This document shows positions 43,999-61,587 of a stretch of 64,000 nt of DNA, piece after piece (position 1 is the stretch's first letter; each line of letters begins with the position of its first letter). The position numbers were made by a program, and so were the translations under genes. Source of the stretch: Blastocatellia bacterium (lineage in GTDB: Bacteria; Acidobacteriota; Blastocatellia; RBC074); NCBI GenBank assembly GCA_038211695.1, contig JBBQVH010000010.1:2825-66824 (forward strand), in the 5' to 3' direction. Under the pieces are notes generated by a model. It made no database searches. It saw only the letters and a program-made list of their open reading frames with translations, and was not told where the DNA came from.

Positions 43999-44139
43999 GG
44001 CTTGGCAAGTGATGCCGGGCAAGTCATGTTTGGCGGAATCTGGCCCGGCACACAGCTTCCGTTCGTCCTTTTGACTTCTCACTTGATTGTCTATACTGCC
44101 CCTTACTCAAACCGGCTTAATCAACAAAGCAATAAAATT

Positions 44140-45549: not shown

Positions 45550-45602
45550 AGTTGAAGAACTGTTTGAGACGCGTAAGATGTTTTCCTGAAACGGAGGTCA
45601 TT

Positions 45603-45875
45603 ATGAGTCCGAGAGAAATCTTAGTTGAAATCGGCAAGCTACCTTTTACGGAGAGGCAGCGATTGATCGAAGCATTAACTGGCAATGGGACGGCATCGTC
45701 TCTGTTCAATTCTTCGGGTTCAATCAGCGAGGACGATTTCCATTTGCTTCTTCAAGCCAAAGGAGTGATCACTCTTCCCACTCTGACTGATTATACGGAT
45801 GAGGATGAGGATTTTGAGCCGATTGAAGTCGAGGGAGAACCATTGTCCGAGCAAATCATCAGAGAGAGACGTTAA
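45603..45875 (+). CDS. Putative type II antitoxin (partner of the downstream PIN toxin)
   Basis: Small acidic protein, GGAGG RBS, stop abutting the PIN gene start. The ORF track extends upstream to 45546. Confidence 0.5.
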   Translation: MSPREILVEIGKLPFTERQRLIEALTGNGTASSLFNSSGSISEDDFHLLLQAKGVITLPTLTDYTDEDEDFEPIEVEGEPLSEQIIRERR

Positions 45876-46339
45876 TGGCAGCCTACTTTCTGGACAGCAG
45901 CGCGCTTGTTAAACGCTACGCCCGCGAAACCGGCACGGCTTGGGTAGTCAGCCTTTTCAAACCGGCGGCGGCAAATTTTATTTACGCCGCGCGAATTACG
46001 TTTGTGGAGGTCGTTGCCGCGTTGACGCGACGAACGCGCAGCGGGCGTCTTGTGCCCACCGCGACTGCAAAGTCGCTGATCAGGTTCCGCCGCGCCTTTG
46101 CTGGGAAATTTCTGATTGTGGATGTAACGGCATCATTGGTTGAGAACGCAGCCGCATTGGCCGAAAAGCATGTCTTGCGCGGTTACGACGCCGTGCAGTT
46201 GGCGGCGGCATTGCAAATCAACTCAGATAGATTGGCCGCAGGCACATTGGCGATCACGCTCATCTCAGCCGACGTGACGCTCAATGCAGCGGCATTGGCT
46301 GAAGGCCTCGCGGTGGATAATCCGAATCATCATCCTTAA
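45875..46339 (+). CDS. PIN-domain toxin (VapC-like)
   Basis: YFLDSSALVKRY (the N-terminal PIN Asp), central D...VTASL, and C-terminal acidic residues. Length matches VapC. Confidence 0.7.
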   Translation: MAAYFLDSSALVKRYARETGTAWVVSLFKPAAANFIYAARITFVEVVAALTRRTRSGRLVPTATAKSLIRFRRAFAGKFLIVDVTASLVENAAALAEKHVLRGYDAVQLAAALQINSDRLAAGTLAITLISADVTLNAAALAEGLAVDNPNHHP

Positions 46340-46372
46340 TCAACAAGGCAACCAACTCCCTGACAATCGCAG

Positions 46373-47398
46373 ATGCGTTTTTTAAAGGTTCTTTTTGCCA
46401 TCGTGATCGTCGCCGGGATTGTCGCTGGTGTCATTTACTGGGTGCGCCGGCATCAGCAACCGATTCCGGTGCCCGTGCCATTTGAAACACAGGGCAAACT
46501 GCAAATCTTCGCACTCGACGTTGGGCAGGGCGATGGCTTGCTGATTATTTCGCCCGGCGGCAAGACGGTGTTGATTGACGCGGGGAACGCGCGTGCGGGC
46601 GATGGCGTTGTCGCTGCACTGCAACGCCGCAACATCCGGTCGCTGGATTTGGTTGTCGCCACGCATCCCCACGCCGATCATATCGGCGGTCTGCGGCGCG
46701 TGATCGGCAAACTGACAGTCGGCAAGCTGCTGGACAGCGGCCAGAATTTTTCCAGCGATGAATATGGCCGGTTACAGCGCGCAGTTAAAAGCCGGAAGGT
46801 TGAATTGCTGATCGCGAAAAAAGGCTGGACATACGATCTGGGCGCGGGCGCGAAGCTGGAAGCCTTCAATCCGCACGGCGGCAATCAGTGGATTACCAAA
46901 GTTCGTGAAGGCGGCAGCGCTGAAAACGCTAATTCTGTCGTCTTGCGATTAAGCTACGGCAATTTTGCGATGATCTTTACCGGCGATGCTGAAACCGAAA
47001 CGGAGGCTGAAATCTTGCGCGCAAAGCTTCCACTGGGCGCACAGGTTTTGAAGATTGGTCATCACGGCTCGCGTTACGCCACCAGCGACAAGTTTCTGAA
47101 TGCCGTTCATCCACAAGCCGCCATCATTTCGTGCGGCGCGGAGAATGGTTATGGTCACCCGTCGCAGCCGACGCTCGACCGATTGAAAAGATCGAACATT
47201 CAGGTGTATCGCACAGACCTTGGCGGCGAGATCGCCATTGTTTCTGACGGCAACACCTTTCAAATATTCCCAACGCGGCAGGCCAACGTCGCTTCCCTGT
47301 TTGAGGGAAGAGTTGGATTGGAGGATTTGCCAATCACGCAATTTCCAAAAGATGCCGCCGCCGCAAAAACATTATTGAAACAAAAAGAAATTGATTAA
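46373..47398 (+). CDS. MBL-fold metallo-hydrolase (ComEC C-terminal domain-like) with an N-terminal TM anchor
   Basis: IFALDVGQGDGLLI...VATHPHADHIGG...KIGHHGS...YGHPS is the metallo-beta-lactamase motif series. Confidence 0.7.
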   Translation: MRFLKVLFAIVIVAGIVAGVIYWVRRHQQPIPVPVPFETQGKLQIFALDVGQGDGLLIISPGGKTVLIDAGNARAGDGVVAALQRRNIRSLDLVVATHPHADHIGGLRRVIGKLTVGKLLDSGQNFSSDEYGRLQRAVKSRKVELLIAKKGWTYDLGAGAKLEAFNPHGGNQWITKVREGGSAENANSVVLRLSYGNFAMIFTGDAETETEAEILRAKLPLGAQVLKIGHHGSRYATSDKFLNAVHPQAAIISCGAENGYGHPSQPTLDRLKRSNIQVYRTDLGGEIAIVSDGNTFQIFPTRQANVASLFEGRVGLEDLPITQFPKDAAAAKTLLKQKEID

Positions 47399-47421
47399 CC
47401 ACCCACTCCAAACTTCAAAAT

Positions 47422-48459
<1,038 letters not shown>

Positions 48460-48527
48460 CCACGTACTGCTGCACATCCACTGTTGTCCACTTTCGTTTT
48501 ACCCAACTTCTTGATCGGGAGATTCAA

Positions 48528-51134
48528 ATGGGAAGATCGCTTTTTCATCGCGTGCTCGTATCCGTCTGTTTGTGTGGGCTGCTGCTGCCCGCGCCAGCTT
48601 TCGCGCAACAGTCGCAAGCGCAAACCAAGAAGTTTGACCTGACCATTGACAACATCATGCGCGGGCCGGATTTGGTCGGCTACGAACCGTCGCGGCCTTA
48701 CTGGTCACAAGACGGCCAGCGCCTCTATTTTCGCTGGAAGCGCGCCGGCGAACCGCGATTGAAAGAGCTTGATCTGTATGTCGTCAATCGCGACGGTAGC
48801 GGTTTGCGCAAGTTGACCGAAGACGAAGCGAAGCAGGCGCCGCCAGCGACGGGCGAGTTGTCGAAGGACAAGAAGCTGACGGTTTTTGCCGAAGACGGCG
48901 ACATCTTTCTGTACGACCACGCGAAGAACGAACGCCGCCCGCTTGTCAGCACAACCGAAGGCGAAGGCAGCCCACGCTTCACCGGCGATCAAAAACACAT
49001 TGTCTTCACGCGGCAGAACAATCTTTATTCGATGGCGCTGGATGGCGGATCGCTGGTGCAATTGACGGACGTTCGTACGGGTGGCGGTGCGCCTGAACCA
49101 GCGGCTGCGCAACGTGGCGGCGGCGGCTTTGGCGGAGGAAGGCAGGGCGGCGGCGGCAATGCAATTGGTCAGGGCGGTCAGGGCGGACAAGCTGGACAAG
49201 CTGGACAAGCGCCGCCGCAGACGAGCAGCAGCCAGGACTTCATCAAGAAAGAAGAGCGCGAACTGATCGAAGCCATCAAAGAGCGCGCGCAGAATCGTGA
49301 AGAGCAGGAGGCCAAACGCAAAGCGCGCGAAAAACGGAAACCGTTTACGCCTCCCGCCGGACAAAGCGTTGGCTCTTTGACGCTTTCGCCCGATGGCAAA
49401 CAGGTTTTGGCCACGCTCTTCCAACCTGCCGCAGGCGCGAAAAATATCATCGTGCCGAACTACGTCACCGAATCCGCTTACACCGAAGATATTCCTGGCC
49501 GCAGTAAAGTTGGCGACGCGCAAGGCCGCAGCAGCCTGACAATCCTTTCCGTTGAAACGGGCGAATCGAAGTTGGTGGATCACGGTCAGAAACAAACCAC
49601 CGCACAACAGACAGGCCAAACGCCAGATCAGGGACAAGCTCAAGGGCAGGGACAACAGGGACAGCGCCCACAACCGCGCGCTCAGGAACGCGACCGCGAT
49701 GTGCAATTGATGAATGCGCAATGGGCAGAAGACAGCAAGCACGCCGTGGTCATGGCGCGCGCAGCGGACAACAAAGACCGCTGGGTGCTGCTGGTAGACG
49801 CGGCGACGGGTAAAACGACGTCGCTGGATCACCAACGCGACGAAGCCTGGGTGGGCGGTCCCGGATCGTTCACGCTGGGCTGGCTGGCGGATAACAAAAC
49901 CATCTACTTCCAATCAGAGCGTGATGGCTGGGCGCACCTGTACACGGTTTCTGCCGATGGAGGCGAGCCGAAGCAACTGACCTCCGGCAAATTTGAAGTC
50001 TCCGACGTGCGGCTGTCAGAAGACAAAACGAAGTTTTATTTCACGTCCAGCGAAGGCAGTCCGTTTGAACATCACTTGTATTCAATGCCCGTCGCGGGCG
50101 GCACGCGAACACGCATCACGACAATGGCGGGCGAAAACAACGTGACAATCTCTCCGGATGAGACGATGCTGGCCATTCTGCGGTCATACAGCAACAAACC
50201 GCCAGAGTTATACATCGCGCCGAATAAGACGAACGCAGCCGCCAGTGAGATCAAACAGGTCACCACGTCGCCAACCGAAGAATTCTCAAGCTACAAATGG
50301 ATTGATCCGCCGATTGTCACCTTCAAGGCGCGCGACGGCGCGGAAGTGCCCGCGCGGTTGTACAAGCCCGTCAATTGGCGGCCTGGCGGCCCGGCGGTTT
50401 TCTTCGTTCACGGCGCGGGCTACCTGCAAAACGTCCACAAATGGTGGAGCAGTTATTTCCGCGAATATATGTTCCATCACTTGTTGATGGAACGCGGCTA
50501 CTTGGTAATGGATGTGGATTATCGCGGCTCTGCTGGTTATGGCCGCGATTGGCGCACGGGCATCTACCGGCATATGGGCGGCAAAGATTTAACCGACCAC
50601 GTGGACGCGGCGAAGTACCTGGTGGCCGAGCACGGCGTTGATCCCAAGCGCATCGGATTGTATGGCGGCAGCTACGGCGGGTTCATCACGCTAATGGCGA
50701 TGTTTACAGAAGCTGACGTGTTTGCGGCGGGCGCTGCGCTGCGGCCTGTCACCGATTGGGCGCATTACAATCACGGTTACACGGCGAACATCCTGAATGC
50801 CCCGCAAAACGACGCTGAAGCTTATAAGCTCAGTTCGCCGATCTACTTTGCTTCGGGCTTGAAAGGCGCGTTGTTGATTTGCCACGGCGTGGTGGACGTC
50901 AACGTCAATTTCCAGGATTCGGTCAGGTTGGCGCAGCGGCTGATTGAGTTGAAAAAAGAGAATTGGGAGCTGGCGATGTATCCGGTTGAAGACCACGGCT
51001 TTGTCCAGCCGGCCAGTTGGGCGGATGAGTACAAGCGGATTCTGAAGTTGTTTGAAACCAATTTGAAAAGCAGCGCGACTGTAACGCCAGTGTCTGCCAA
51101 TCCTAAGAGTTCAAACCGCAAGTCGCAGCGCTGA
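48528..51134 (+). CDS. Secreted S9 family peptidase (DPP IV-like, TolB-type propeller) with a Gly/Gln-rich low-complexity insert
   Basis: Signal peptide; catalytic GGSYGGF (Ser), HGVVDVNV (Asp) and EDHGF (His); insert GGGGFGGGRQGGGGNAIGQGGQGGQAGQAGQ encoded by caagctggacaagctggacaagc tandem repeats. Confidence 0.8.
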   Translation: MGRSLFHRVLVSVCLCGLLLPAPAFAQQSQAQTKKFDLTIDNIMRGPDLVGYEPSRPYWSQDGQRLYFRWKRAGEPRLKELDLYVVNRDGSGLRKLTEDEAKQAPPATGELSKDKKLTVFAEDGDIFLYDHAKNERRPLVSTTEGEGSPRFTGDQKHIVFTRQNNLYSMALDGGSLVQLTDVRTGGGAPEPAAAQRGGGGFGGGRQGGGGNAIGQGGQGGQAGQAGQAPPQTSSSQDFIKKEERELIEAIKERAQNREEQEAKRKAREKRKPFTPPAGQSVGSLTLSPDGKQVLATLFQPAAGAKNIIVPNYVTESAYTEDIPGRSKVGDAQGRSSLTILSVETGESKLVDHGQKQTTAQQTGQTPDQGQAQGQGQQGQRPQPRAQERDRDVQLMNAQWAEDSKHAVVMARAADNKDRWVLLVDAATGKTTSLDHQRDEAWVGGPGSFTLGWLADNKTIYFQSERDGWAHLYTVSADGGEPKQLTSGKFEVSDVRLSEDKTKFYFTSSEGSPFEHHLYSMPVAGGTRTRITTMAGENNVTISPDETMLAILRSYSNKPPELYIAPNKTNAAASEIKQVTTSPTEEFSSYKWIDPPIVTFKARDGAEVPARLYKPVNWRPGGPAVFFVHGAGYLQNVHKWWSSYFREYMFHHLLMERGYLVMDVDYRGSAGYGRDWRTGIYRHMGGKDLTDHVDAAKYLVAEHGVDPKRIGLYGGSYGGFITLMAMFTEADVFAAGAALRPVTDWAHYNHGYTANILNAPQNDAEAYKLSSPIYFASGLKGALLICHGVVDVNVNFQDSVRLAQRLIELKKENWELAMYPVEDHGFVQPASWADEYKRILKLFETNLKSSATVTPVSANPKSSNRKSQR

Positions 51135-51151
51135 TTTGTCTGTTGGAGGGG

Positions 51152-54109
51152 ATGCCGGTGGACAAGCCTATCGTTTTTATCAGCTACAGCCACGATTCAG
51201 ACCACCATCGAGAGAAAGTCCTCGCGCTTTCCGAGCGGCTTCGAGATGACGGGATCGAGACGCGCCTGGATCAATACGTGAACGGCACACCCACCGAAGG
51301 CTGGTCACGATGGATGCTCAATCAATTGGACGAAGCGGACTTTGTGCTGGTGATTTGCACTGAAACTTACTACAAGCGATTTCGCGGCTGGGATGAATCC
51401 GCCAAGGGCGTGGATTGGGAAGGCGCGCTGATTACGCAAGACATCTACAACAACAAGAGCAGAACGGTGAAGTACGTCCCCGTTCTGTTTTCAGATGATC
51501 ACCAGCAATTCATTCCCGAACCTATCGGATCAGTGACGCGGTATGTCTTAACTTCTGATTCCAATTACCAAGCGCTTTACGATTTTCTGCTCGGTCAAGC
51601 TGGCGTAGAACCTCGCGCAATCGGCGAACCCAAATTGAAACCCCGCCGCAAAGCCACGCCGCTCAGCTTCGACGACCAACCCACCCAATCCGCCTCAGCG
51701 CAGCGCGAACAGGAGTTGGCCTACCTGGACAATCTCAAGGCTGAACATCTGCGCAAGCTCGACCTATACACGCCAATCAGCGGCGGGTCGCAACAGCAGC
51801 GGCGCGTTCGCATGCACATCGTTTGCGACCTGGAATCGTTTAACAGGGAACAGCCGGTGCGTTCGTTTGTTGACGCTGTCGAAGAGCTTCACCGCATTCG
51901 GCACAGTTCTGGTAATTCCAAGCGCGCGGTTCTGCTGGGCAAACCGGGTAGTGGCAAAACAACCATCCTTTGGAAGTTGGCGGATGATCTGGTCGCCGCC
52001 GCGCGCAAAGACCCTGCGGCTCCGATCCCGCTGCTAATCCGATTGGGCTTCTGGGATCAATCTGACCAGTCCCTGTTTGAATTCGTCGCCGAACAATTGG
52101 AAGAAGTGGGCGGGCTTGGCGATTATCTGGGTTTGTTACTGGCGCAAAAACGCGCGGCGCTCCTGCTGGATGGATTGAACGAACTGCCCGTCGCTGAACG
52201 TCGCAGTAAGTATGCGCAGGTTCGGCAATTCATCGAAGCGCATCCGAAGTTGCTGGCCGTCGTTTCCTGCCGCAAAGACGATTACGCGCCTAATTACGAT
52301 TTCGACCTCGGCTGTGACCGCATCACCATCCTGCCGCTCGACGCCATACGAATTCGCCAGTTTGCGCTGAAATATTTGCCGGAACAGGGCGAAGCTTTCT
52401 TTTGGGATTTGGCCGGAAAAGACACGCGTGGTTATTACGACGATTTCATTGCCACGGTTGGCGCGCCAGATGAAGATCGCTTCTGGCTGGAGCCGCAACC
52501 GCCGCCCGATTTGAAATGGACGTACGACGGGGACACCGAAAACGAATACAGCTATTGGCCACAATGGATCGAACACCGCGATAAGACTGCCAGTTTGATG
52601 ATGTTGGCGTGCAATCCGTACATGCTCTCGATGCTGCTTTACATCTATCAAAAGCAAGGCGAACTGCCTGCCAATCGCGGCGATCTTTTTCAATGGTTTG
52701 TGGAGGTATTGCTGGAACGTGAAGGAATTCTGGCTGACGAGCAGAATCCGTTGGTTGCCGGGCTGGCGCAGGTGGCCTACGCAATGCAAAGCCAGCGCGC
52801 GCCCGGCAACGAAGACAACGAAAACAGTGAAGCAGAGGAAGGCAATGCGCTGACCGTGCTGCCACAAACAGAAGTGCGCAAAATCCTGGATGAACAGTCG
52901 CTCAAGCTGGCCGTCAGCGCCAGCTTGCTCAGTCCGGGTGAACAAGTGCGCTTCACGCATCAACTGTTACAGGAATACTTTGCCGCCTGCTATCTGAAAA
53001 GCCAGATGACCACGGCGCGATCCGATGCCTCGGCCTTCTGGCCGCCGGATCGCTGGTGGCAGCGCACCAACTGGGAAGAAGTCGCCATTCAACTCGCCGG
53101 TTTGTATCCCAAAGATTGCTCGGAAGTCGTCGAATGGATTGCGTCGGCCAACCCGAAAGTCGCCGCACAGTGTGCAACTCGCAGCGGCGCTGCTCCATTG
53201 CCCGCCGCCACGCTTGAAAGATTGCGCGAACAGTGGCGTCCGCGTCTGGAAGGCCCAACAAGCGACACTGAACTTAAAGCGCGCGTAGACATTGGATGGG
53301 CGATGGGATTGCTGGATTTGGACAATCGCCCGGGCGTCGGAGTTGTTGACGGTCTTCCCGACATTGCTTGGGTCGAAATTTCCGACGGCAAGTTCAAGTA
53401 TGGTGATAAGAGTGGATATGCCGCCAAGCCGCGCAAGCTGACGCTGCCTGATTTCTACATCAGTCGCTTTCCGGTGACGCAGGCGCAGTTCAAAACTTTT
53501 CTGGACGATCCGGAAGGTTACGGCAATAGGCAGCGTTGGTTTGAAGGATTGACAGAAGACGAAGACGACCGCCGGATCGAAGAACCTTATTTCAAATTCG
53601 CCAATCATCCACGCGACAATGTCACCTGGTATCAGGCGATGGCTTTTTGCCGTTGGTTGTCGTGGCGGAAAGGCACGACCCACGATCTGGACAAGGTGAC
53701 GGAATGGGCGGTGCGATTGCCAACGGAGTTTGAATGGGAGAAAGCAGCGCGCGGCACTGATGGACGGGTTTATCCATACGAAGGCGATTACGATCCGGCA
53801 AAGGCCAACACCGGCAACACCGGCATCGGCCAGACCAGCGCGGTGGGTATCTTCCCGGACGGTGCATCGCCTTATGGTGTGGAAGAAATGAGCGGAAACG
53901 TCTGGGAATGGTGTCTGAGCAGCCACGACAATCCTGCGGACAAGGCAGAAGATGAAGACTTGCGAACGGACGAAGCTCGCCTCCTGCGGGGCGGTTCGTG
54001 GATCGGCGATCTAGACTTCGCGCGTGCCGTCTATCGTAGCGGCCTTCATCCGGGCGGTCGTGTCCTCATTGCCGGTTTTCGGTTGTTGTTGGTGCGTCCC
54101 CCTTCCTGA
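51152..54109 (+). CDS. TIR - NACHT-type STAND NTPase - FGE-sulfatase (SUMF1-like) domain protein. Candidate anti-phage or immune receptor.
   Basis: N-terminal TIR_2-like segment (IVFISYSHDSDHH...FVLVICTETYYKRF). Walker A LLGKPGSGKTT and Walker B LLLDGLNELP. C-terminus RLPTEFEWEKAARGTDGRVYPYEG...SGNVWEWCLS...RGGSW, the FGE-sulfatase fold. ATG follows a GGAGGGG RBS, 17 nt after the peptidase stop. Confidence 0.8.
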   Translation: MPVDKPIVFISYSHDSDHHREKVLALSERLRDDGIETRLDQYVNGTPTEGWSRWMLNQLDEADFVLVICTETYYKRFRGWDESAKGVDWEGALITQDIYNNKSRTVKYVPVLFSDDHQQFIPEPIGSVTRYVLTSDSNYQALYDFLLGQAGVEPRAIGEPKLKPRRKATPLSFDDQPTQSASAQREQELAYLDNLKAEHLRKLDLYTPISGGSQQQRRVRMHIVCDLESFNREQPVRSFVDAVEELHRIRHSSGNSKRAVLLGKPGSGKTTILWKLADDLVAAARKDPAAPIPLLIRLGFWDQSDQSLFEFVAEQLEEVGGLGDYLGLLLAQKRAALLLDGLNELPVAERRSKYAQVRQFIEAHPKLLAVVSCRKDDYAPNYDFDLGCDRITILPLDAIRIRQFALKYLPEQGEAFFWDLAGKDTRGYYDDFIATVGAPDEDRFWLEPQPPPDLKWTYDGDTENEYSYWPQWIEHRDKTASLMMLACNPYMLSMLLYIYQKQGELPANRGDLFQWFVEVLLEREGILADEQNPLVAGLAQVAYAMQSQRAPGNEDNENSEAEEGNALTVLPQTEVRKILDEQSLKLAVSASLLSPGEQVRFTHQLLQEYFAACYLKSQMTTARSDASAFWPPDRWWQRTNWEEVAIQLAGLYPKDCSEVVEWIASANPKVAAQCATRSGAAPLPAATLERLREQWRPRLEGPTSDTELKARVDIGWAMGLLDLDNRPGVGVVDGLPDIAWVEISDGKFKYGDKSGYAAKPRKLTLPDFYISRFPVTQAQFKTFLDDPEGYGNRQRWFEGLTEDEDDRRIEEPYFKFANHPRDNVTWYQAMAFCRWLSWRKGTTHDLDKVTEWAVRLPTEFEWEKAARGTDGRVYPYEGDYDPAKANTGNTGIGQTSAVGIFPDGASPYGVEEMSGNVWEWCLSSHDNPADKAEDEDLRTDEARLLRGGSWIGDLDFARAVYRSGLHPGGRVLIAGFRLLLVRPPS

Positions 54110-54376
54110 TCACTGTTGGGGGCGGTGCGCGAAGCGCAGGTGCGACACGCGCAGAATCCGCAGTACGCCGAACAGATAGTTGTCCAGATTGCGAATGCCA
54201 TCGAGTTCAGGCGCGGCGAGCGTGAATTGAATAAACGCATCGTGCAGCAAGTCTTCCGCCTGCGCGCGGTCGTGATCGGTCAAATGCAGCGCCCAGCCGA
54301 GCAAGCGGTCGTAACGTTCAGCGAAATGCTCAGCGTGGCTCTTCAAAGCGGGATTGATCTTCAGCAGTTGTAACAT
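54110..54376 (-). pseudogene. ECF sigma-70 fragment (region 2 only), a truncated remnant
   Basis: AERYDRLLGWALHLTDHDRAQAEDLLHDAFIQFTLAAPELDGIRNLDNYLFGVLRILR is sigma-70 region 2. No region 4. Its stop abuts the STAND gene stop. Confidence 0.5.
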
Positions 54377-56939
54377 CGAATAAGAAACTTCCTGGGAGCG
54401 CAGTGCCTCCGCCGCTCGTGATGGTGACGGTCGCCGCGCCGCTGGCCGTGCCCGAAGGTAGCAGATAATTGACCTGTGTCGGCGAAACGAAAAAGAGCGC
54501 CGCCGCACGTTCGACGCCATCGCTGTCTTTCACTTTGGCACTGGTATCAGCCAACTTTATCGGCAGCGGATTCGAGGTGGCTATCTGAGTCGCAGTTGCC
54601 AGCTTTGATCCGAACGCCGCGATGATCGAATCGCTCGCGAAAGCCGAACCGGCGTAGCTGGCGGCGGAAACGTTCGAGATTGGGCGCGTGACTGAGGCGT
54701 CACTGATCTTGCTGACAAAGGCATCCGTCCCCGCACCGGGCAAGTTGCCCAGTCTCTGCTGAAATGCGTTTGAGGTGACCGGGAATTTGTCCGATTTGGT
54801 TTCTCCCGTGACGAAGACGTTGCCGTGTGCGTCTGCCGCAATACCTCTGCCCAACCCCTCGCCTATGACTACGGAATAGATAAACGCGCCGCCCGCCGGA
54901 TCAATCTTTGCCACGAAGACGCCGCCTGTCGCTAGAAACGGATTCTCCGTTGTTGTTCTGACAAACGTGTTGGCAGACACCGTTCCGGCTATACAGGCAT
55001 TACCCCCTGCGCCAACAGCGAGCGATGGCCCGTCATACGGTTCCCCCGCTGCGCCATTGATGTAGGTCGAATAAACGAGCGCGCTTCCCTGTGGATTCAA
55101 CTTCGTGATGAAGGCAGCCTGCGTTGTGGGCGCGCCGATGATCTCTGATTGCAACGCTCCGGGCGTGATCGGAAACCCGTTGCCTTTCGTGGTGATTCCG
55201 GTCACGTAAGCGTTGCCGGTCGCGTCAACCGCGATGCGCCCGCCGAATCCTGCGCCAAGCAGCGTCGAAAACCCAAGCGTTCCATCGGCTTTGAACTTCG
55301 TCACGAACGCCAATCTGTTCTCACCCGATGGGACGCATCCTTGCCCGGTGTCGCGGCGGTATGCGCCCTCGGTCGTTGGAAAAGGCTCAACGGGTGGCGC
55401 GTCGTTTCTGGAGCAGGAAGAACTCGTCGTGCCGCCGACGTAGGCATTGCCGCCTGCGTCCACCGCGATACCCGCGCCCGCCTCTCCGCTGCCGCTACTC
55501 AGGTAGGTCGCGTAAAGCAACTGAGTGGCTGTGGGATTCAGCTTTGCCACGAAGATGCTGCTGCTGGTGTTCTTCATCGTTTTCTGAAAAGCATCGGGTG
55601 TAACCGGGAAATTGCGTGACGATGTTTCGCCAGTCACCCAGGCTTGCCCTTGCCCATCTACAGCGACGCCGTTGCCTTCCGCCGCGCCGCGCCCAAGCAG
55701 TGTTGAATATGCCAATGTCGTGCCCTTGCTGTTGAGCTTGAATACGAAAGCTTCATTGCTGAACTGGCTGGGCAGAGAAAAAGGCTGAATCGTTCCGGCT
55801 GTAGTCGGGAAGTTTTCGCTGTGGGTTTGGCCAGCTACGTAAACGTTGCCCTGCGCATCAACCGCGATAGCCCGGCTGCGATTGTCGAGCGCGTAATTCG
55901 TACTTTGAAAGTCGCGTATGCCGCGCGTCCCGCCGATGATGACTGAATAAAGCACATCGCTACCGTCGGCACTCAGTTTGGTAACGAAGATGAATGCACC
56001 CGACTTGGTCGGCGGAGTCACCGTGGGCGGCGGCGCGCCAGGCACCATCGGGAAAGTGAACGGGAAATTTTCCGACAAAGTAGTCGAGCCGGTCACGTAA
56101 GCATTTCCCTCATTATCCACCGCAATCGCCTGGGCAACGTCCGCGTCCTGCCCGCCGAGAAAGGTCGAATAACTGAGCATTGGGTCTATCACCGGCGGCT
56201 TGCCACCATCGTAACGCGCGATGTCGAAACGCACCTGCTCCCCTTCGATCACGTAGCGACCGGTGATTTCATGCTTCTCGCCTTTTGTTTCCTGGTAAAC
56301 GAACGGTTTGGGCTGCCGCACTTCTCCCGCGCCGGTTTCGATCAGCAAATCGCCATCGGCTGCCAGCCCCAGCCTGCGCGCGCCCTTGAACCGCAGCTTG
56401 ATCGCCCGCGGATTCGCGCCCGGCGCGATGACGAAATCGTATTCAAGCTGCTGCCGTTCGCTGCCCCCGCCGTAAAAGAGCAGGTCAATGCCCGGATAGA
56501 CGGCTTCGTATTTGATCCCGGCGTACAGCGGCGCGTTCGTCACCCACAGCCGAGGATTGTCGCCGAGAAAGTAATGGCTCTTGCCCGGTAATTCGCCCAC
56601 GCCGCTGATGCGCGGTTGCGCGTTGGCACCGGCGAATTGCAGGCGAACCGGCCCCGCCGCCGCTTCTGTTGCCGTGAAAAAGAGCGCGCCGCCGCGCCCG
56701 CGGGCGATGAACTTGACGACGGACTGCGCCTGTCCGCGATTGGCCTCGAAGTGAAGTGGCGTCTGGCCGTAGGCAGCGTGATGTTCCGACACGGTTCGAT
56801 TGCGGCGCGGCGATGGGCTGCCGTCCGTGCCAGTGGCTTTCGACGCCTGCGGTAGCGATGCACCGAACGTAAAGGCGGCCAGCAGCCAGACCAGCAATCT
56901 TGAGGCGCATAATGAAAGTGAGGAATATGGGTGTTTCAT
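54330..56939 (-). CDS. Secreted SBBP (beta-propeller) repeat protein with a truncated Solibacter-type C-terminal domain
   Basis: Signal peptide, then more than 10 repeats of the G(N/Q)AYVTG...(S/T)xNFPxTxxAFQ type. The C-terminus aligns to only the first half or so of the C-terminal domain of the neighbouring paralogue, then stops. Confidence 0.75.
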   Translation of the reverse strand: MKHPYSSLSLCASRLLVWLLAAFTFGASLPQASKATGTDGSPSPRRNRTVSEHHAAYGQTPLHFEANRGQAQSVVKFIARGRGGALFFTATEAAAGPVRLQFAGANAQPRISGVGELPGKSHYFLGDNPRLWVTNAPLYAGIKYEAVYPGIDLLFYGGGSERQQLEYDFVIAPGANPRAIKLRFKGARRLGLAADGDLLIETGAGEVRQPKPFVYQETKGEKHEITGRYVIEGEQVRFDIARYDGGKPPVIDPMLSYSTFLGGQDADVAQAIAVDNEGNAYVTGSTTLSENFPFTFPMVPGAPPPTVTPPTKSGAFIFVTKLSADGSDVLYSVIIGGTRGIRDFQSTNYALDNRSRAIAVDAQGNVYVAGQTHSENFPTTAGTIQPFSLPSQFSNEAFVFKLNSKGTTLAYSTLLGRGAAEGNGVAVDGQGQAWVTGETSSRNFPVTPDAFQKTMKNTSSSIFVAKLNPTATQLLYATYLSSGSGEAGAGIAVDAGGNAYVGGTTSSSCSRNDAPPVEPFPTTEGAYRRDTGQGCVPSGENRLAFVTKFKADGTLGFSTLLGAGFGGRIAVDATGNAYVTGITTKGNGFPITPGALQSEIIGAPTTQAAFITKLNPQGSALVYSTYINGAAGEPYDGPSLAVGAGGNACIAGTVSANTFVRTTTENPFLATGGVFVAKIDPAGGAFIYSVVIGEGLGRGIAADAHGNVFVTGETKSDKFPVTSNAFQQRLGNLPGAGTDAFVSKISDASVTRPISNVSAASYAGSAFASDSIIAAFGSKLATATQIATSNPLPIKLADTSAKVKDSDGVERAAALFFVSPTQVNYLLPSGTASGAATVTITSGGGTALPGSFLFDVTTAEDQSRFEEPR

Positions 56940-56956
56940 AGTTCGTCTCTCTGGCT

Positions 56957-59900
56957 TTACTTAATCCACACTTTGACCGGGTTGGCCGGTTTGCCTTCCA
57001 CGCTCAGGGTGAAATCCACTTCGCCCCGGCCCGCCAGGGCGCGCGGCAACAGTAAATTGACCTGGTCCAGTCCGGCGAATTCGCCTTGAGCTCCCGCGAA
57101 GATCACCTGTGTGCTGACGCCGCCGAACTGTGCGCTGACGGCGGTCATCGCGCTGCGATTGCGAACGCCCGTGCCGAAACTGATCAGGTAAACCTGCTCG
57201 GTCGCTGCTCCCAAATCAATTGGAATCGGCACCAGTTTGTTTTGCATCGCATCGAAACGCGCGATGGGTTCGTAGCTTTGCGCGCCGTTGGCTTTGACGC
57301 GCAGCGCCACGCCCGCCAACAAACCGCGCCCGCTGGCATCGGCGGTGAACAATCCCGGCGCGGTCGCTTCGATCTGTAATCCGGAGCCGGATGTCATGCC
57401 ATCACCGCTGGTAATGACAACCGTGGCCAAGCCCGGTGCGACTTCCGGTGGAATCAGATAGTTGACCTGCGTCGGCGAAACGAAAAAGAGCGGCGCAAAA
57501 TACTCCTCGCTGCGGCTGTCCCGAATGATGACCGTTGTGCCGACCAGATACACCGGTAGCGGCATGGACGCCGCCACTTGCGTTTCCACCGCCAGTTTCG
57601 CGCCGAAGGCCGTGACAATTGAATCGGCGGCGAACCGCGTTGAGTCGTAACTGGCGGCGGAAAGATTCGCCAGTGGCTGCGGCAGAGGGGATCGCTTGAA
57701 GTGGGCGGACTGATTGGTACTCAAATTGGTGAAAGTTTGACTGCGCGGCACGAAATCCAGGCCCCCTTGTTTGGCGGGCGAAACCGTGTAATTCCCGCCA
57801 CCGGGCAAATCCTGGAACGAGTAGAACCCTTGCGAATTGGTTGTCGCCGTGGCCGTGCGTCCGCCGCTCAATCCCACTTTGGCGCCACTGAGGCCTACAT
57901 TGTTATCGTCCGTCAGATAACCGCTGATCTGAAACTTGTCCCCTGGCAGGGCAACCAAGGTGAAGAGAACGGTCTGACTTTCGCTGAGGTTATTGATGGT
58001 GAAGCTCGGCGGGCTGAAGGTGCGCCCGGGGAGCGTCGCGGTAATGACGTAGTTACCACCCGACGGCAAGTCTCCGAAGAGTATACCGCCGATGATATAC
58101 CCCCGGGTGCCACTGGCCGTGCCCATACAACTGAACTCCACGGACGGGATGGCGTATCCATTGGCGTCTAACGCCTTGGCAGCAATCTCGTAGGTGCTGG
58201 GGCGGGGGATTGGCGTCGGCACAGGCAGTGGCGAAGGAATCAATGGCTCGGCATTGGGCGCAGCGGCGATTTTCGTGGCGAAGGCATGGTTGTAGCCTTT
58301 GCCGGAGCCGGGCGGCAACTCTGTCAGTCCTTCGTAATGGGGCTGATAAGAACCGGGCGTCGTGGCGTAGCCAAATCTCGCGCCGCCAGTGATGTAGGCA
58401 TTGCCCACCGGGTCAAGGGCAATTCCATATGCGCGGCTGTCGTTGTTGCCAATCATCGTTGAATAAATCAGCCCGGTGCCCGCCGGGTTGAACTTGGTCA
58501 CGAATGCTCCCTTGCCGGTGGCAACCGGGCGATAACTGTCTGAGGTGACCGGGAAGCGTGGGGAGAATGCATAGCCGGTTACATAGGCGCTGCCCGCCGC
58601 ATCCACCGCGATGCCTCTGATCACCTCACGGTCATCCAGGCTGCCGAAGTACGTGGCGTAAACTAGTGCCGTCGCGTTCGGGTTGAGTTTCACCACAAAG
58701 CCGTCCGTGTTGGGGAAATCGCGATTGGGGCTGCCGCCTGTCGGCTGAAATGCGCCGGGCGTGGTCGGGAACTTCTCCCATTCACACGCGCCAGCGATAT
58801 AAGCATTGCCCTGTGCATCCACGGCAATGTGCTGATCCCAGTTGGAAAACGGCGCAACACCCAGCGTCGTCGAGTAGGCGAGCACGCCCGCGGCGCTGAA
58901 CTTTGTGACGAAGACATAGCCGGGCGCGTGATAAACGCCGGGCGTCAAAGGGAAACTCGTTCCGAAGTTGCGCCCGGTGACGTAGGCGTTGCCTTGCGCA
59001 TCCAGCGCGATGCCAGACCCCACGCCGCCAGCGGTGCCTTCAGTCGGGCTGAACGTGCCGCCCAAATAAGTCGAATAAAGCAGCGCACTGCCCGTCGCGT
59101 TGAGTTTGGTGACGATGACCGGCGCGCCGCCTTTGCTCAATTGTTGATATGCGTTCAAGGTTGTCGGATATCCATTGCCCGACGAAACACCAGTAATCCA
59201 AGCTTCGCCGGAGGCGTTGACCGCAATGGCAAAACTTTTATCACTACCAACGCCACTAAGTAACGTGGCATAGGCCAGCGCATTGCCGCTCGCATTGAGT
59301 TTAATTACGAAAGCATCCGTAGGCGGATGGCGGTCGTCAGTCCCCGGTGCGATGGTGCGCTGAAAGGCGTTGGGCGTCGTGGGAAAGTTCGCCGTCGTCG
59401 TTTCGCCCGTTACGTAAGCATTCCCCTGCGGGTCCACCGCGATTCCGTAAGCGCGGTTGTCCAGATAAAGGATCGGATTGCTGTCCGCTCCGTTGGAGAC
59501 ATAAAAACCGTTCGTGCCGCCGATCAACGCGGAATACAGCGCCGTGCTACCCGTGGGATCGAGTTTAACGACGAAGACGAATTGCGCTGACGGGGCAGGG
59601 TTTGTCTGCCTGACCGCGCCAGGCGTCGTTGGAAACTCACCGCCGCCATAACCGGTGATATAAGCATTGCCCTGCGCATCTACCGCAATTGCTTCGCCGT
59701 GTCCTGCGCCGCCGTTGCTGGTTGCGCCCAGATACGTGCTGTAGCTGAGCACAGGGTCAATCACCAGCGGGCGGCTCGCATCGTACGCGCCAACCCCGAA
59801 TGCGACTTCGTTTTTGCCCCGCAGCAGATAAGCGCCGACGACCTGCTGTCTGCGCCCGCCAATTTTCTGATAAACGACGGGCCGGTGCTGCCGAACTTTC

Positions 59901-60628
59901 CCAGCCGTTGTTTCAATCAGCAAATCTCCCTGTTCATCAAGCCGCAACTTCCGCGCGCCCGCAAAGCTCAGCTTGATGCGCTTTGGATCAGCGCCGGGTG
60001 CCAGGCGGAAGTCGTATTCCAGTTGTTGCTGATTGCCGTAGTAAATAACATCAATGCCCGGATAGACGCCTTCGTATTTGACCCGTGCGTAATTGGGCAC
60101 ATCGGTCTTCCACCCGTTGGCGTCGCTGCCGAGGAAGTAGTTGCTCCTGCCAGGCAGTTCGCCCGCGCCGGTGATGCGCAGATTTTGATTCGCGCCCGCG
60201 AGTTTCATTCGCAGAGTGGCCGATTGTTGGGTTGATTGCGGAGCGCGGAGTTCCGGCGGCGCATCAAGAGAGTTTTGCGCGCTCCCCATTGACCTTGAGC
60301 CGAAATCCGCTTTCCGCAATTCCATGACCGCCTCGTTGGCGGTCAGAAAGAAGGTGTAGTCTTGTCCGCGCGAAAGGAATTTCACACGGGCGGAGGTCTG
60401 TCCTTGATTGGCTTCAAAGCTTAACGGCAACTTGCCGTAATTTTCCTGGATCAGTGCTTTCTTTGCCGAGTCATTCGCGGCGGGTTTGTTCCCTTCGGCG
60501 CTGGCCGCCATTGAGCTTCCGAAGATCGGTTTCGGCCACGATGCTTGTAAATTCAGCGTCAACAAACAGATGGCCAACATGGCCTTCAGGTGGGATTTCC
60601 GGTGATTCGTAAATTTCATGAGATTCAT
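56957..60628 (-). CDS. Large secreted SBBP repeat protein with CarboxypepD_reg-like domains and a complete Soli_cterm-type C-terminal domain
   Basis: Signal peptide; many GNAY(V/I)TG...FPTTPGA repeats; FQISGYLTDDNNVGLSGAKVGLSGGRTATATTNSQGFYSF (CarboxypepD_reg); C-terminus ...QVIFAGAQGEFAGLDQVNLLLP...FTLSVEGKPANPVKVWIK. Confidence 0.75.
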   Translation of the reverse strand: MNLMKFTNHRKSHLKAMLAICLLTLNLQASWPKPIFGSSMAASAEGNKPAANDSAKKALIQENYGKLPLSFEANQGQTSARVKFLSRGQDYTFFLTANEAVMELRKADFGSRSMGSAQNSLDAPPELRAPQSTQQSATLRMKLAGANQNLRITGAGELPGRSNYFLGSDANGWKTDVPNYARVKYEGVYPGIDVIYYGNQQQLEYDFRLAPGADPKRIKLSFAGARKLRLDEQGDLLIETTAGKVRQHRPVVYQKIGGRRQQVVGAYLLRGKNEVAFGVGAYDASRPLVIDPVLSYSTYLGATSNGGAGHGEAIAVDAQGNAYITGYGGGEFPTTPGAVRQTNPAPSAQFVFVVKLDPTGSTALYSALIGGTNGFYVSNGADSNPILYLDNRAYGIAVDPQGNAYVTGETTTANFPTTPNAFQRTIAPGTDDRHPPTDAFVIKLNASGNALAYATLLSGVGSDKSFAIAVNASGEAWITGVSSGNGYPTTLNAYQQLSKGGAPVIVTKLNATGSALLYSTYLGGTFSPTEGTAGGVGSGIALDAQGNAYVTGRNFGTSFPLTPGVYHAPGYVFVTKFSAAGVLAYSTTLGVAPFSNWDQHIAVDAQGNAYIAGACEWEKFPTTPGAFQPTGGSPNRDFPNTDGFVVKLNPNATALVYATYFGSLDDREVIRGIAVDAAGSAYVTGYAFSPRFPVTSDSYRPVATGKGAFVTKFNPAGTGLIYSTMIGNNDSRAYGIALDPVGNAYITGGARFGYATTPGSYQPHYEGLTELPPGSGKGYNHAFATKIAAAPNAEPLIPSPLPVPTPIPRPSTYEIAAKALDANGYAIPSVEFSCMGTASGTRGYIIGGILFGDLPSGGNYVITATLPGRTFSPPSFTINNLSESQTVLFTLVALPGDKFQISGYLTDDNNVGLSGAKVGLSGGRTATATTNSQGFYSFQDLPGGGNYTVSPAKQGGLDFVPRSQTFTNLSTNQSAHFKRSPLPQPLANLSAASYDSTRFAADSIVTAFGAKLAVETQVAASMPLPVYLVGTTVIIRDSRSEEYFAPLFFVSPTQVNYLIPPEVAPGLATVVITSGDGMTSGSGLQIEATAPGLFTADASGRGLLAGVALRVKANGAQSYEPIARFDAMQNKLVPIPIDLGAATEQVYLISFGTGVRNRSAMTAVSAQFGGVSTQVIFAGAQGEFAGLDQVNLLLPRALAGRGEVDFTLSVEGKPANPVKVWIK

Positions 60629-60984
60629 TGCAACTACTCTCCAGCTTTAAGATTGAGCAGGTTGGGAAAAGAGAAACAGCTTGTATGGACGATCGGGCCT
60701 GGTGAAGATCGGTGGCGGACTGCCTTGTCATTGCCACTCACACCATAGTGGTCGGAACTTGGGGCAATCCCACACGGGCGAAGAAATTTAATTTGCGCCT
60801 CCTGGTGTACGCACAGCCTCCGGAGTGCGGACTTGTTTGAAGAGCCATTTGAATTCCACCAGGCCTGCCCGGCCACGCCTACACGCCGGAGGCGGTGTGT
60901 ACTCAGGCTGTCTTGCAAGTTCTACGGCGTGGGCGAATAATCCCGCGCTTCTGACATCAATCTAAAAATCTGTGACGCCATTTT

Positions 60985-61587
60985 ATGAAGCGAATTGGAA
61001 TTTTGATCTCAGGTCGCGGCTCGAACATGGTTGCGATTGCCGAAGCCGCGCGCGACGGGCGCATCGCAAATGCCGAAGTCGCGCTGGCCATCAGCAATAT
61101 TGAAACAGCGGCGGGGCTGCGGCGGGCGCGCGAGATGGGCATCCCGACGTTCGTTCACAGCCATCGCGGCTCGACGCGCGAACAGCATGACCGCGCGATG
61201 GCGGCTGAGCTTCGCGCCCGCGAAGTTGATCTGGTCTGCCTGGCCGGTTATATGCGGTTGCTCTCGCCGTGGTTCATTCGCGAATTCGAGCATCGCATCT
61301 TGAACATTCATCCATCATTGCTTCCGGCCTTCCCCGGCCTGGACGCGCAGAAACAGGCGCTGGATTACGGCGTCAAATTCACCGGCTGCACGGTGCATCT
61401 GGTGGATGAGGAATTGGATCACGGCCCGATCGTCAAACAATCAGTCGTGCCGGTGATGACGGGCGATACCGTCGAAACTCTTTCTGGCCGCATTCTTGCC
61501 GAAGAACACAATGCCTACAGCGAAGCCGTTGCGCTGATCGTCGGCGGAAAGTTTCGGATCGAAGGCCGTCGTGTGATTGAGCTTTGA
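60985..61587 (+). CDS. purN: Phosphoribosylglycinamide formyltransferase
   Basis: RIGILISGRGSNM...CLAGYMRLL...NIHPSLLPAFPG. Confidence 0.9.
   Translation: MKRIGILISGRGSNMVAIAEAARDGRIANAEVALAISNIETAAGLRRAREMGIPTFVHSHRGSTREQHDRAMAAELRAREVDLVCLAGYMRLLSPWFIREFEHRILNIHPSLLPAFPGLDAQKQALDYGVKFTGCTVHLVDEELDHGPIVKQSVVPVMTGDTVETLSGRILAEEHNAYSEAVALIVGGKFRIEGRRVIEL

What the first reader, a model, noticed from the sequence alone, without database searches (positions are those of the whole stretch)
54110..54520. Apparent insertion scar: truncated Soli_cterm domain gene and orphan ECF-sigma region-2 fragment abutting the STAND gene
The 869-aa SBBP protein ends after only the first half or so of the C-terminal domain, which its 1223-aa neighbour carries in full. 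The next 270 nt encode only region 2 of an ECF sigma factor, with no region 4. The reading frame of that fragment stops exactly where the convergent TIR-STAND gene ends. The juxtaposition of two truncated genes against an accessory gene suggests the TIR-STAND gene, perhaps together with the S9 peptidase, arrived by a deletion or insertion event.
Basis: inference. Interest (0 to 1): 0.5.

Follow-up and report, generated by a model that had tools for sequence, protein, structure and literature searches.

The report
Defence gene replaced a signalling operon
A phage-defence-type gene has replaced most of a membrane-signalling sigma-factor operon in a soil acidobacterium, leaving an 88-codon stub of a ~1000-codon gene; a sister lineage carries a restriction system at the same spot, so this is an ordinary but well-documented gene-replacement scar.

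Summary
The 869-aa SBBP protein keeps only positions 2-87 of the 225-position Soli_cterm domain. The next ORF (54376..54110, minus strand, 88 aa) holds only sigma region 2. Its stop codon directly abuts the stop of the convergent SEFIR/TIR-NACHT-FGE-sulfatase gene.

Related Pyrinomonadaceae contigs show what was lost. The stub is the first 81-88 codons of a ~990-aa single-polypeptide ECF sigma/anti-sigma hybrid (sigma2, sigma4, HxxxCxxC, one transmembrane helix, ~500-aa outer part). In intact relatives this gene lies between an SBBP gene and a TonB-dependent-receptor-like gene that converges on the S9 peptidase gene.

In the window about 6 kb (sigma codons ~82-994 plus the receptor gene) is replaced by the 3-kb defence-type gene. 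In the relative closest by purM, purN and the sigma stub, the sigma gene is cut at codon 149 and a type III restriction-modification system fills the same position. More distant relatives have S9 next to purN with nothing between.

The S9 peptidase is a conserved flank, not cargo. The Soli_cterm truncation is a separate ~0.45-kb deletion. No transposon hallmarks were found. Substitutions in the stub are mostly synonymous, so the truncation is either recent or the stub is still under selection.

The parts
48528..51134 (+). S9 (DPP-IV/prolyl oligopeptidase family) peptidase gene. It is the conserved left flank, not cargo.
   Evidence: Pfam Peptidase_S9 and DPPIV_N. Orthologues at 78-87% identity lie next to purM in all relatives, whatever occupies the slot.
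51135..51142 (.). Left junction: the sequence between the S9 stop codon and the first possible start of the cargo gene.
   Evidence: Sequence diverges immediately after the S9 stop in every state of the locus, and no shared att-like motif is present.
51143..54109 (+). Cargo: a single gene encoding SEFIR/TIR, NACHT (STAND NTPase) and a C-terminal FGE-sulfatase domain. The likely real start is ATG 51152 or GTG 51158.
   Evidence: Pfam SEFIR 1.5e-16, TIR_2 2.1e-10, NACHT 8.2e-8, FGE-sulfatase 1.1e-43. PADLOC bSEFIR 2.5e-45. Absent from all syntenic relatives except L001.
54110..54133 (-). Right junction tail: the last 7 codons and stop of the sigma stub. It is either non-homologous or only weakly homologous to intact sigma genes.
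   Evidence: blastn homology to L002 ends at 54134. Homology to L156 extends at most to 54122, and only with a gap.
54134..54376 (-). Remnant of the sigma/anti-sigma hybrid gene: codons 1-81, covering sigma region 2 only.
   Evidence: 88.7% nt identity to L002 and 83% to L156. Pfam Sigma70_r2 at residues 20-82. The full-length orthologue P0131 is 994 aa.
54378..54392 (-). Second junction: a deletion of ~0.45 kb that removed the 3' ~147 codons of the SBBP869 gene and the SBBP-sigma intergenic region.
   Evidence: Protein alignment A4. DNA comparison with L157. Sigma-side homology starts 5 nt upstream of the ATG.
54330..56939 (-). SBBP869: a DUF7948 plus SBBP beta-propeller protein with a truncated Soli_cterm domain.
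   Evidence: Pfam and NCBIfam. 56-58% identical to the L072 and L157 orthologues, which carry a complete C-terminus.
56957..60628 (-). SBBP1223: an intact paralogue with a complete Soli_cterm domain.
   Evidence: TIGR03437 positions 3-225 of 225.
51135..60984 (.). The whole variable block between the S9 stop and the purN start. It is absent from the empty-site relatives.
   Evidence: In L152/153, L154/155, L160/161, L162/163 and L164, S9 is followed by purN within 13-55 nt. L162 also shares the window's right flank of purN, sigma54 activator and kinase.
60985..61587 (+). purN: the conserved right flank.
   Evidence: Pfam Formyl_trans_N. 80-88% identical in relatives.

Best explanation
The site is a gene-replacement scar inside a variable block between the S9 peptidase gene and purN.

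Ancestral state (seen in relatives). The lineage carried a three-gene unit on the minus strand:
- an SBBP/Soli_cterm secreted protein;
- a ~990-aa single-polypeptide ECF sigma/anti-sigma hybrid (sigma2, sigma4, HxxxCxxC zinc-type motif, one transmembrane helix, ~500-aa outer domain);
- a TonB-dependent-receptor-like outer-membrane protein, whose 3' end met the 3' end of the S9 gene.

What happened in the window's lineage (inferred). A single defence-type gene (SEFIR/TIR-NACHT-FGE-sulfatase) now occupies the place of the receptor gene and of sigma codons ~82-994. About 6 kb was lost and 3 kb gained. What remains is an 88-codon sigma2-only ORF whose stop codon is supplied by the junction. A separate ~0.45-kb deletion removed the 3' 40% of the upstream SBBP gene and the intergenic region.

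Functional consequence (inferred). Without sigma4, the anti-sigma part and the membrane part, the stub cannot act as a sigma factor, so the signalling unit is dead. The flanking SBBP genes are decaying: one is truncated here, and the L002 gene is frameshifted.

Mechanism of arrival. Illegitimate or flank-guided recombination after horizontal transfer is most likely, since no mobile-element hallmarks are present. The mechanism is inferred, not shown.
For: Intact reference on one contig. L156 carries purN, SBBP (1373 aa), the sigma hybrid (994 aa, 85% identical to the stub), the receptor-like gene (1087 aa) and a convergent S9 (85.5% identical over the 228 C-terminal residues held on that contig). 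L157-159 and L151 show the same unit, and L008 shows its purN-SBBP-sigma part.

The family is ~1000 aa.
- ORF lengths.
- Sigma2 and sigma4 at residues 1-175.
- HxxxCxxC in 36 of 36 members.
- A single hydrophobic helix at ~470-510 in 7 of 7 tested.
- A receptor-like gene directly downstream in 24 of 30 paralogous loci.

Extent of loss. Homology of the window to L002 and L156 covers only 54376..54134/54122. No other piece of the gene exists anywhere in the 64-kb window.

Different cargo in the same slot. L002-L007 have the sigma gene cut at codon 149, followed by type III Res and Mod genes (PADLOC 5e-137 and 2e-137).

Empty sites. Five relative loci have S9 directly followed by purN.

Cargo identity. 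It matches the defence model bSEFIR at 2.5e-45. SEFIR proteins are enriched in defence islands and one protects against phage (10.1101/2022.05.11.491447).

Independent assembly. L001 reproduces both junctions.
Against: - No direct repeats, inverted repeats, integrase or transposase flank the cargo, and there is no GC shift. The mechanism and direction of transfer therefore remain inferred.
- The cargo has only 8-24 nt of leader and at most 24 nt of trailer. That is unusually tight for an insertion and may mean that later trimming deletions occurred.
- The stub shows mostly synonymous change: dN/dS 0.10 against L002, and 7 synonymous to 4 non-synonymous changes on the window branch. A long-dead pseudogene would not look like this, so the event must be recent or the stub is selected.
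- No contig shows the intact unit in a genome closer to the window than L002. The order of events is therefore not resolved: window and L002 could have been truncated independently, or in sequence. The S9 tree pairs the window with L151, whereas the purM tree pairs it with L002.
Confidence: 0.85

Rival explanations
1. The 88-aa sigma2-only ORF is a functional small protein kept by selection, for example an RNA-polymerase-binding decoy, or a stretch needed for expression or termination of the convergent defence gene. On this reading it is not a dead remnant.
For: - dN/dS is 0.10 against L002.
- On the window branch the conserved core (residues 11-78) has 6 synonymous and 0 non-synonymous changes.
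- The start codon and a GGAAG motif upstream are retained despite the adjacent 0.45-kb deletion.
- A second lineage (L002) also keeps an N-terminal stub.
- Gene callers predict the ORF.
Against: - The two stubs differ in length (88 and 151 aa), and each ends within a few codons of where homology to the intact gene stops.
- Most of the longest homologues listed are ~960-1100 aa.
- The short database hits at 51-64% identity (P0003-P0009) sit on short contigs, or carry no contig record, and their ends were not checked; at least one is annotated partial.
- The same substitution pattern is expected if the truncations are recent.
- Only 27 differences are available, so the test has little power to date the event.
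Confidence: 0.1
2. One ancestral event destroyed the sigma-receptor unit in the common ancestor of the window and L002, for example arrival of the restriction system with a cut at codon 149. The window lineage later swapped the restriction system for the STAND gene and lost a further ~65 codons.
For: - In the purM tree, and by purM, purN and sigma-stub identity, L002 is the closest relative of the window.
- Both carry a truncated sigma at the same slot with the same fixed boundary on the S9 side.
Against: - The stub evolved under purifying selection on both branches: 7 synonymous to 4 non-synonymous in the window and 8 to 3 in L002, against a neutral expectation of about 1 to 3. That is not expected if it was already dead in the ancestor.
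- The full-length S9 tree places L151, which has an intact unit, as sister to the window, with L002 outside.
Confidence: 0.2
3. The juxtaposition is a metagenome mis-assembly (chimeric contig), and no real truncation exists.
For: The record is a metagenome-assembled contig. The cargo boundaries are unusually tight.
Against: - A separate Logan assembly (L001) spans SBBP869, the stub and the STAND 3' end without gaps.
- Six separately assembled JGI contigs from different samples reproduce the analogous L002 junction.
- Both flanks are collinear with relatives.
Confidence: 0.02

Closest known systems
Defence islands and variable 'hotspot' slots between conserved core genes
   Same: Conserved flanks (S9 peptidase, purN) bracket different contents in related genomes. 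Two of those contents are recognised defence types: a SEFIR-domain STAND protein and a type III restriction-modification system. Empty sites also exist.
   Different: No integrase, tRNA, repeats or other mobile-element marks were found. The cargo is a single bare ORF. Its arrival is coupled to destruction of a resident signalling operon. Only two defence cargos were seen, so 'hotspot' rests on a small sample.
Bacterial SEFIR defence proteins (Millman et al. 2022 preprint, 10.1101/2022.05.11.491447) and NACHT/STAND (NLR-like) antiviral ATPases
   Same: There is an N-terminal SEFIR domain that scores above TIR, a match to the PADLOC bSEFIR model, and a central NACHT NTPase.
   Different: The PADLOC match covers only the SEFIR part (profile positions 38-224 of 412). 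The C-terminal FGE-sulfatase domain as presumed sensor is not part of the tested Bacillus protein. Defence activity was not tested here.
IutY of Pseudomonas putida (an ECF243 sigma/anti-sigma hybrid in cell-surface signalling) and the ECF52/ECF53 fused sigma factors of Actinobacteria (PMC8999054, PMC5826349)
   Same: The intact relatives of the stub have the ECF sigma, a zinc-type HxxxCxxC motif, one transmembrane helix and a large outer domain in one polypeptide. A TonB-dependent-receptor-like gene lies directly downstream, as in cell-surface signalling.
   Different: The proteins are far longer (~1000 aa). The outer ~500 aa has no Pfam or NCBIfam match. The receptor carries a CarboxypepD_reg N-terminus and no signalling (STN) domain was among its Pfam hits. 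The taxon is Pyrinomonadaceae (Acidobacteriota). The window itself retains only sigma2. Group assignment in the ECF classification was not tested.
TIGR03437 Soli_cterm domain proteins with SBBP beta-propellers
   Same: Both window proteins have the DUF7948, SBBP and Soli_cterm architecture, and the 1223-aa protein has the full domain.
   Different: The 869-aa protein stops at model position 87 of 225 because of a deletion.

Membership tests
Functional ECF sigma factor | Sigma region 2 (binds the core enzyme and the -10 element) | tested here: met
   Pfam PF04542 at residues 20-82, 26.5 bits against a cut-off of 24. NCBIfam ECF models match only their N-terminal halves.
Functional ECF sigma factor | Sigma region 4 (recognises the -35 element) | tested here: not met
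   No region 4 hit was found, and the ORF ends at residue 88. Orthologues carry region 4 at ~130-175. No remnant exists elsewhere in the window.
Single-polypeptide sigma/anti-sigma hybrid (IutY/ECF52-like), assessed in the intact relatives | Sigma2 and sigma4 followed in the same polypeptide by an anti-sigma-type zinc motif and a transmembrane helix | tested here: met
   ORFs of ~950-1060 aa. Sigma domains at residues 1-175. HxxxCxxC in 36 of 36 members at residues 218-255. One hydrophobic segment at ~470-510 in 7 of 7 tested. The window copy retains none of this beyond sigma2.
Single-polypeptide sigma/anti-sigma hybrid (IutY/ECF52-like), assessed in the intact relatives | A partner TonB-dependent transducer with an N-terminal signalling domain | tested here: inconclusive
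   A receptor-like gene lies directly downstream in L151, L156, L157 and in 24 of 30 paralogous loci. Pfam finds CarboxypepD_reg, OMP_b-brl_4 and TonB_dep_Rec_b-barrel on it; no signalling (STN) domain is among the hits.
Single-polypeptide sigma/anti-sigma hybrid (IutY/ECF52-like), assessed in the intact relatives | Activation by regulated proteolysis that releases the sigma part | not testable with these tools
   Known for IutY (PMC8999054). It would need experiments.
Defence hotspot or island | Different cargo between the same conserved flanks in related genomes, including empty sites | tested here: met
   The window has SEFIR-NACHT-FGE and L002 has a type III restriction-modification system. 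L151 has two small ORFs plus the intact unit, L156 and L157 have the intact unit, and five loci are empty.
Defence hotspot or island | Cargo belongs to recognised defence families | tested here: met
   PADLOC bSEFIR 2.5e-45, REase_III 5e-137, MTase_III 2e-137. The two small ORFs in L151 have no PADLOC hit.
Transposon, insertion sequence or integrative element insertion | Terminal inverted repeats, target-site duplication, or a transposase/integrase gene | tested here: not met
   Only short repeats with no pair positioned at the two cargo ends. No such genes lie between S9 and purN. There is no shared motif after the S9 stop and no GC shift.
bSEFIR defence gene | An N-terminal SEFIR domain that scores above TIR | tested here: met
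   SEFIR 61.4 bits against TIR_2 41.6 bits, both at residues 11-140. This is the selection criterion described in 10.1101/2022.05.11.491447.
bSEFIR defence gene | Protection against phage | not testable with these tools
   It would need expression in a host and a phage challenge.
Soli_cterm (TIGR03437) domain protein | A complete ~225-position C-terminal domain | tested here: not met
   The 869-aa protein covers positions 2-87 only, whereas the 1223-aa protein covers 3-225. About 147 residues are missing relative to L157 and L072.

The most novel reading that the evidence does not exclude
The N-terminal sigma2 stub may be kept by selection in lineages where a defence system has replaced the rest of the sigma/anti-sigma-receptor operon. 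It could be a free sigma2 domain that binds RNA polymerase, or a piece of coding sequence needed for expression or termination of the convergent defence gene. On this reading the S9/receptor junction in these Pyrinomonadaceae is a recurrent capture site for defence genes that works without an integrase.
Probability: 0.1. Interest if true: 0.6.

Novelty: new member of a known kind. Interest (0 to 1): 0.3.

Why it matters
The locus is a clean, fully bracketed example, in uncultured soil Acidobacteriota, of defence genes turning over at one chromosomal slot at the expense of a resident signalling operon. Empty, intact and two differently replaced states were all recovered.

For annotation, the 88-aa 'sigma factor' and the 869-aa SBBP protein should be treated as remnants. 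The STAND gene should be treated as lineage-specific cargo.

As a by-product, the comparison exposes a large family of ~1000-aa sigma/anti-sigma hybrids in Pyrinomonadaceae. Their outer half has no Pfam or NCBIfam match, and they are coupled to TonB-dependent-receptor-like and SBBP genes. ECF specialists may find this family worth classifying.

Tried and rejected
- Exact-sequence look-up of the 869-aa protein: not on record.
- GC content and skew across 44-64 kb: flat, with no sign of foreign composition.
- Repeat search across the cargo and both junctions: only short repeats, none placed at the two cargo ends, so no terminal repeats or duplications.
- Promoter and terminator scan: no promoter-like sites and nothing meaningful at the junctions.
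- Search for displaced pieces of the sigma hybrid elsewhere in the window: none.
- Shared motif downstream of the S9 stop across all states: none.
- More truncated copies next to defence genes among 58 paralogous loci: most of the short ORFs checked are frameshifted full-length genes. The one real truncation examined (L063) sits among carbohydrate-utilisation genes, not defence genes.
- PADLOC scan of the two small ORFs in L151, the stub and the full-length hybrid: no hits.
- Search for the full-length version of the L151 sigma gene: not found, best hit 64% identical.
- Supplementary tables of the ECF re-classification paper, to assign a group: not held.
- The metagenome scan did not return the JGI contigs already found by the protein look-up, and it gave mostly paralogues.
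Full report
**What is in the window**

Around the finding the genes run as follows.

| Coordinates | Strand | Gene |
|---|---|---|
| 44002-45549 | + | purF |
| 46373-47398 | + | metallo-beta-lactamase-fold gene |
| 47422-48459 | + | purM |
| 48528-51134 | + | S9 peptidase |
| 51143-54109 | + | 988-aa SEFIR/TIR, NACHT, FGE-sulfatase protein |
| 54376-54110 | - | 88-aa ORF with sigma region 2 only |
| 56939-54330 | - | 869-aa DUF7948/SBBP protein |
| 60628-56957 | - | 1223-aa paralogue of the SBBP protein |
| 60985-61587 | + | purN |
| 63049-61616 | - | sigma54 activator |

**Checking the observation**

The 869-aa protein matches the Soli_cterm model only at positions 2-87 of 225. Its neighbour matches positions 3-225.

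The 88-aa ORF matches Sigma70_r2 at residues 20-82 and has no region 4. Sigma homology starts at the ATG at 54376, which lies 47 nt inside the end of the 869-aa ORF.

The stop of the plus-strand gene (54107-54109) and the stop of the sigma ORF (complement of 54110-54112) touch.

A separate Logan assembly (L001) covers 53355-54691 without gaps. All 10 of its mismatches lie at its own contig end.

**What the sigma fragment is a fragment of**

A protein search found a 151-aa relative at 90% identity (P0002) and several shorter or partial ones.

A scan of species-representative genomes with their alignment returned 63 loci, mostly Pyrinomonadaceae and other Blastocatellia MAGs. Extending the reading frame in each showed that complete family members are about 950-1060 aa. 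Their features are:
- sigma regions 2 and 4 at residues 1-175;
- an HxxxCxxC motif at residues 218-255 in 36 of 36 members;
- one hydrophobic helix at about 470-510 in 7 of 7 tested;
- about 500 further residues with no Pfam or NCBIfam match.

This is the layout of a sigma factor fused to its own membrane anti-sigma factor. It is known for IutY of Pseudomonas putida and for the actinobacterial ECF52/53 groups, which are thought to be released by regulated proteolysis (PMC8999054; PMC5826349).

A TonB-dependent-receptor-like gene (CarboxypepD_reg, OMP_b-brl_4, TonB_dep_Rec_b-barrel) follows directly on the same strand in 24 of 30 loci with enough downstream sequence.

**Orthologous loci: four states of one slot**

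Look-ups of the sigma relatives and of S9 peptidase orthologues gave syntenic contigs.

- *State 0, empty.* S9 is followed by purN within 13-55 nt in L152/153, L154/155, L160/161, L162/163 and L164. L162 also shares the window's right flank (purN, sigma54 activator, histidine kinase) and left flank.
- *State 1, intact unit.* L156 holds everything on one contig: purN, an SBBP gene (1373 aa), the sigma hybrid (994 aa, 85% identical to the window's stub), the receptor-like gene (1087 aa) and a convergent S9 gene (85.5% identical over the 228 C-terminal residues held on that contig). L157-159 show SBBP, hybrid (980 aa), receptor and S9. L151 has the most similar full-length S9 of the relatives compared (86-90% depending on the alignment). 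It shows S9, two small ORFs, the receptor gene and the C-terminal 789 residues of the hybrid, which runs off the contig. L008 shows purN, SBBP and at least 188 residues of the hybrid. Gene spacing is 4-47 nt between SBBP and sigma, and sigma and the receptor gene overlap by 4 nt, which suggests one operon.
- *State 2.* In L002-L007 (six contigs from different samples) the sigma ORF stops at 151 aa. Homology to intact genes ends at residue ~149. It is followed by type III Res and Mod genes (PADLOC 5e-137 and 2e-137), then S9. The SBBP gene there is split into four ORFs, and L004 reproduces this.
- *State 3.* The window and L001.

**Boundaries in the window**

Nucleotide homology to L002 covers 54381-54134, and to L156 it covers 54377-54122. 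Beyond 54134 the alignment needs a gap and is weak. The junction therefore lies between 54134 and the stop codon at 54110-54112.

On the other side, similarity to relatives runs to the end of the S9 gene and is lost right after its stop codon.

The cargo is thus 51135 to about 54133. It is one ORF with 8-24 nt of leader and at most 24 nt of trailer. Relative to L156, the window lacks sigma codons ~82-994 (about 2.7 kb) and the receptor gene (about 3.3 kb). No trace of either is present anywhere in the 64 kb.

**The Soli_cterm truncation is a second lesion**

The 869-aa protein aligns with the L157 and L072 orthologues (56-64% identity) up to about residue 850. About 147 residues are then missing, and the last 17 residues are translated from the sigma region in another frame.

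In L157 the SBBP stop is 4 nt from the sigma ATG. The window has therefore lost about 0.45 kb between roughly 54392 and 54378. The sequences allow a few bases of microhomology (TTATTC / ATTC) at the join, but this is not proven.

**Mechanism**

No terminal repeats, target duplications, integrase or transposase, GC shift or shared sequence motif were found. The S9-side boundary is fixed in all states. The other boundary varies: the receptor gene is intact in L151, sigma is cut at codon 149 in L002, and at codon 81-88 in the window.

This fits insertion at the convergent S9/receptor junction with adjacent deletions. It equally fits replacement by illegitimate recombination, with selection protecting S9. 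Which of these occurred is inferred, not shown.

**Timing**

Over stub codons 1-81, the window and L002 differ by 19 synonymous and 8 non-synonymous changes (dN/dS 0.10). That value falls within the range of the five flanking genes tested, 0.03-0.11.

With L156 and L157 as outgroups, the window branch carries 7 synonymous and 4 non-synonymous changes, and the L002 branch carries 8 and 3. The conserved core (residues 11-78) has no amino-acid change on the window branch. Neutral decay would give about three non-synonymous changes per synonymous one.

So either both truncations are recent and independent, or the stub is still under selection. The trees do not settle the branching order. The full-length S9 tree pairs the window with L151 (intact unit). 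The purM tree pairs it with L002.

**The cargo**

Its N-terminus matches SEFIR better than TIR and the PADLOC bSEFIR model at 2.5e-45. SEFIR-domain proteins are enriched in defence islands, and one protects Bacillus against phage phi29 (10.1101/2022.05.11.491447).

The NACHT and C-terminal FGE-sulfatase domains give the usual three-part effector, NTPase and sensor layout of STAND proteins. That reading rests on my own knowledge of the family. Defence activity is inferred, not tested.

**Verdict**

Four corrections apply:
- S9 is not cargo.
- The missing material is a ~990-aa sigma/anti-sigma hybrid plus a receptor gene.
- There are two separate lesions.
- The whole SBBP-sigma block is itself accessory relative to more distant relatives.

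This is a well-supported but ordinary case of defence-gene turnover that destroys a resident operon. It is a new member of a known kind.

Noticed in passing
L156:6982-9966, L157:2308-5250, and 36 full-length copies among L009-L059: Pyrinomonadaceae and other Blastocatellia MAGs carry a multi-copy family of ~1000-aa single-polypeptide ECF sigma/anti-sigma hybrids, several copies per MAG. Each has sigma2, sigma4, HxxxCxxC, one transmembrane helix and ~500 aa with no Pfam or NCBIfam match. A TonB-dependent-receptor-like gene usually follows, and often an SBBP gene. Their group in the ECF classification was not determined.
   Followed up: partly
window 60801-60907; L002:9887-9990: An imperfect ~105-nt palindrome (arms of ~22 bp; DNA fold -24.4 kcal/mol, z = -2.0) lies upstream of SBBP1223 in the window. 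A related copy lies directly upstream of the sigma start in L002. The corresponding SBBP-sigma intergenic stretch in the window was removed by the 0.45-kb deletion. It may be a regulatory or promoter element of the unit, or a small mobile palindrome.
   Followed up: partly
window 44002-51134 and 60985-61587; L152, L154, L160, L162, L164: The order purF, metallo-beta-lactamase-fold gene, purM, S9 peptidase, purN is conserved on one strand across Blastocatellia relatives. A peptidase and an MBL-fold gene are therefore embedded in a purine-biosynthesis cluster.
   Followed up: no
L002:17467-18078; L162:9350-9961; window 48460-48527: A 203-aa Uma2-family gene (PADLOC candidate PDC-S03, 1e-13) sits between purM and S9 in L002 and L162. 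It is absent from the window, where only 68 nt separate the two genes. This is a second small presence/absence site in the same cluster.
   Followed up: no
L151:1080-6307: In L151 a Peptidase_C11 gene and a 1102-aa TPR-CHAT protein lie between the short-chain dehydrogenase gene and purF. Relatives L152 and L154 have nothing there. This is another variable slot, carrying a conflict-system-type gene.
   Followed up: no
L002:6780-9886; L004:166-3272: The SBBP gene next to the truncated sigma in the L002 lineage is broken into four ORFs, with the DUF7948 domain split across two of them. Separately assembled contigs reproduce the breaks. The pattern is consistent with decay after loss of the sigma hybrid.
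   Followed up: partly
window 54330-60628 compared with L002, L156, L157, L072: The SBBP genes of the block are far more diverged between relatives (43-58% aa identity) than the flanking purN (80-88%) or the sigma stub (85-90%). They also differ in number (one or two) and in length (869-1373 aa; L156 has extra Kelch repeats). They are either fast-evolving or exchanged surface proteins.
   Followed up: no
L063:10001-10583: A paralogous sigma hybrid appears cut at about residue 195, in a locus of rhamnosidase, glucuronyl esterase, DeoR regulator and arabinofuranosidase genes. Remnants of this family also occur away from defence genes.
   Followed up: partly
L040:10866-12152: A paralogous sigma hybrid in a 5.7-Mb Blastocatellia contig is interrupted by about 1.3 kb and changes frame. 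This could be an insertion element or a long-read assembly error.
   Followed up: no
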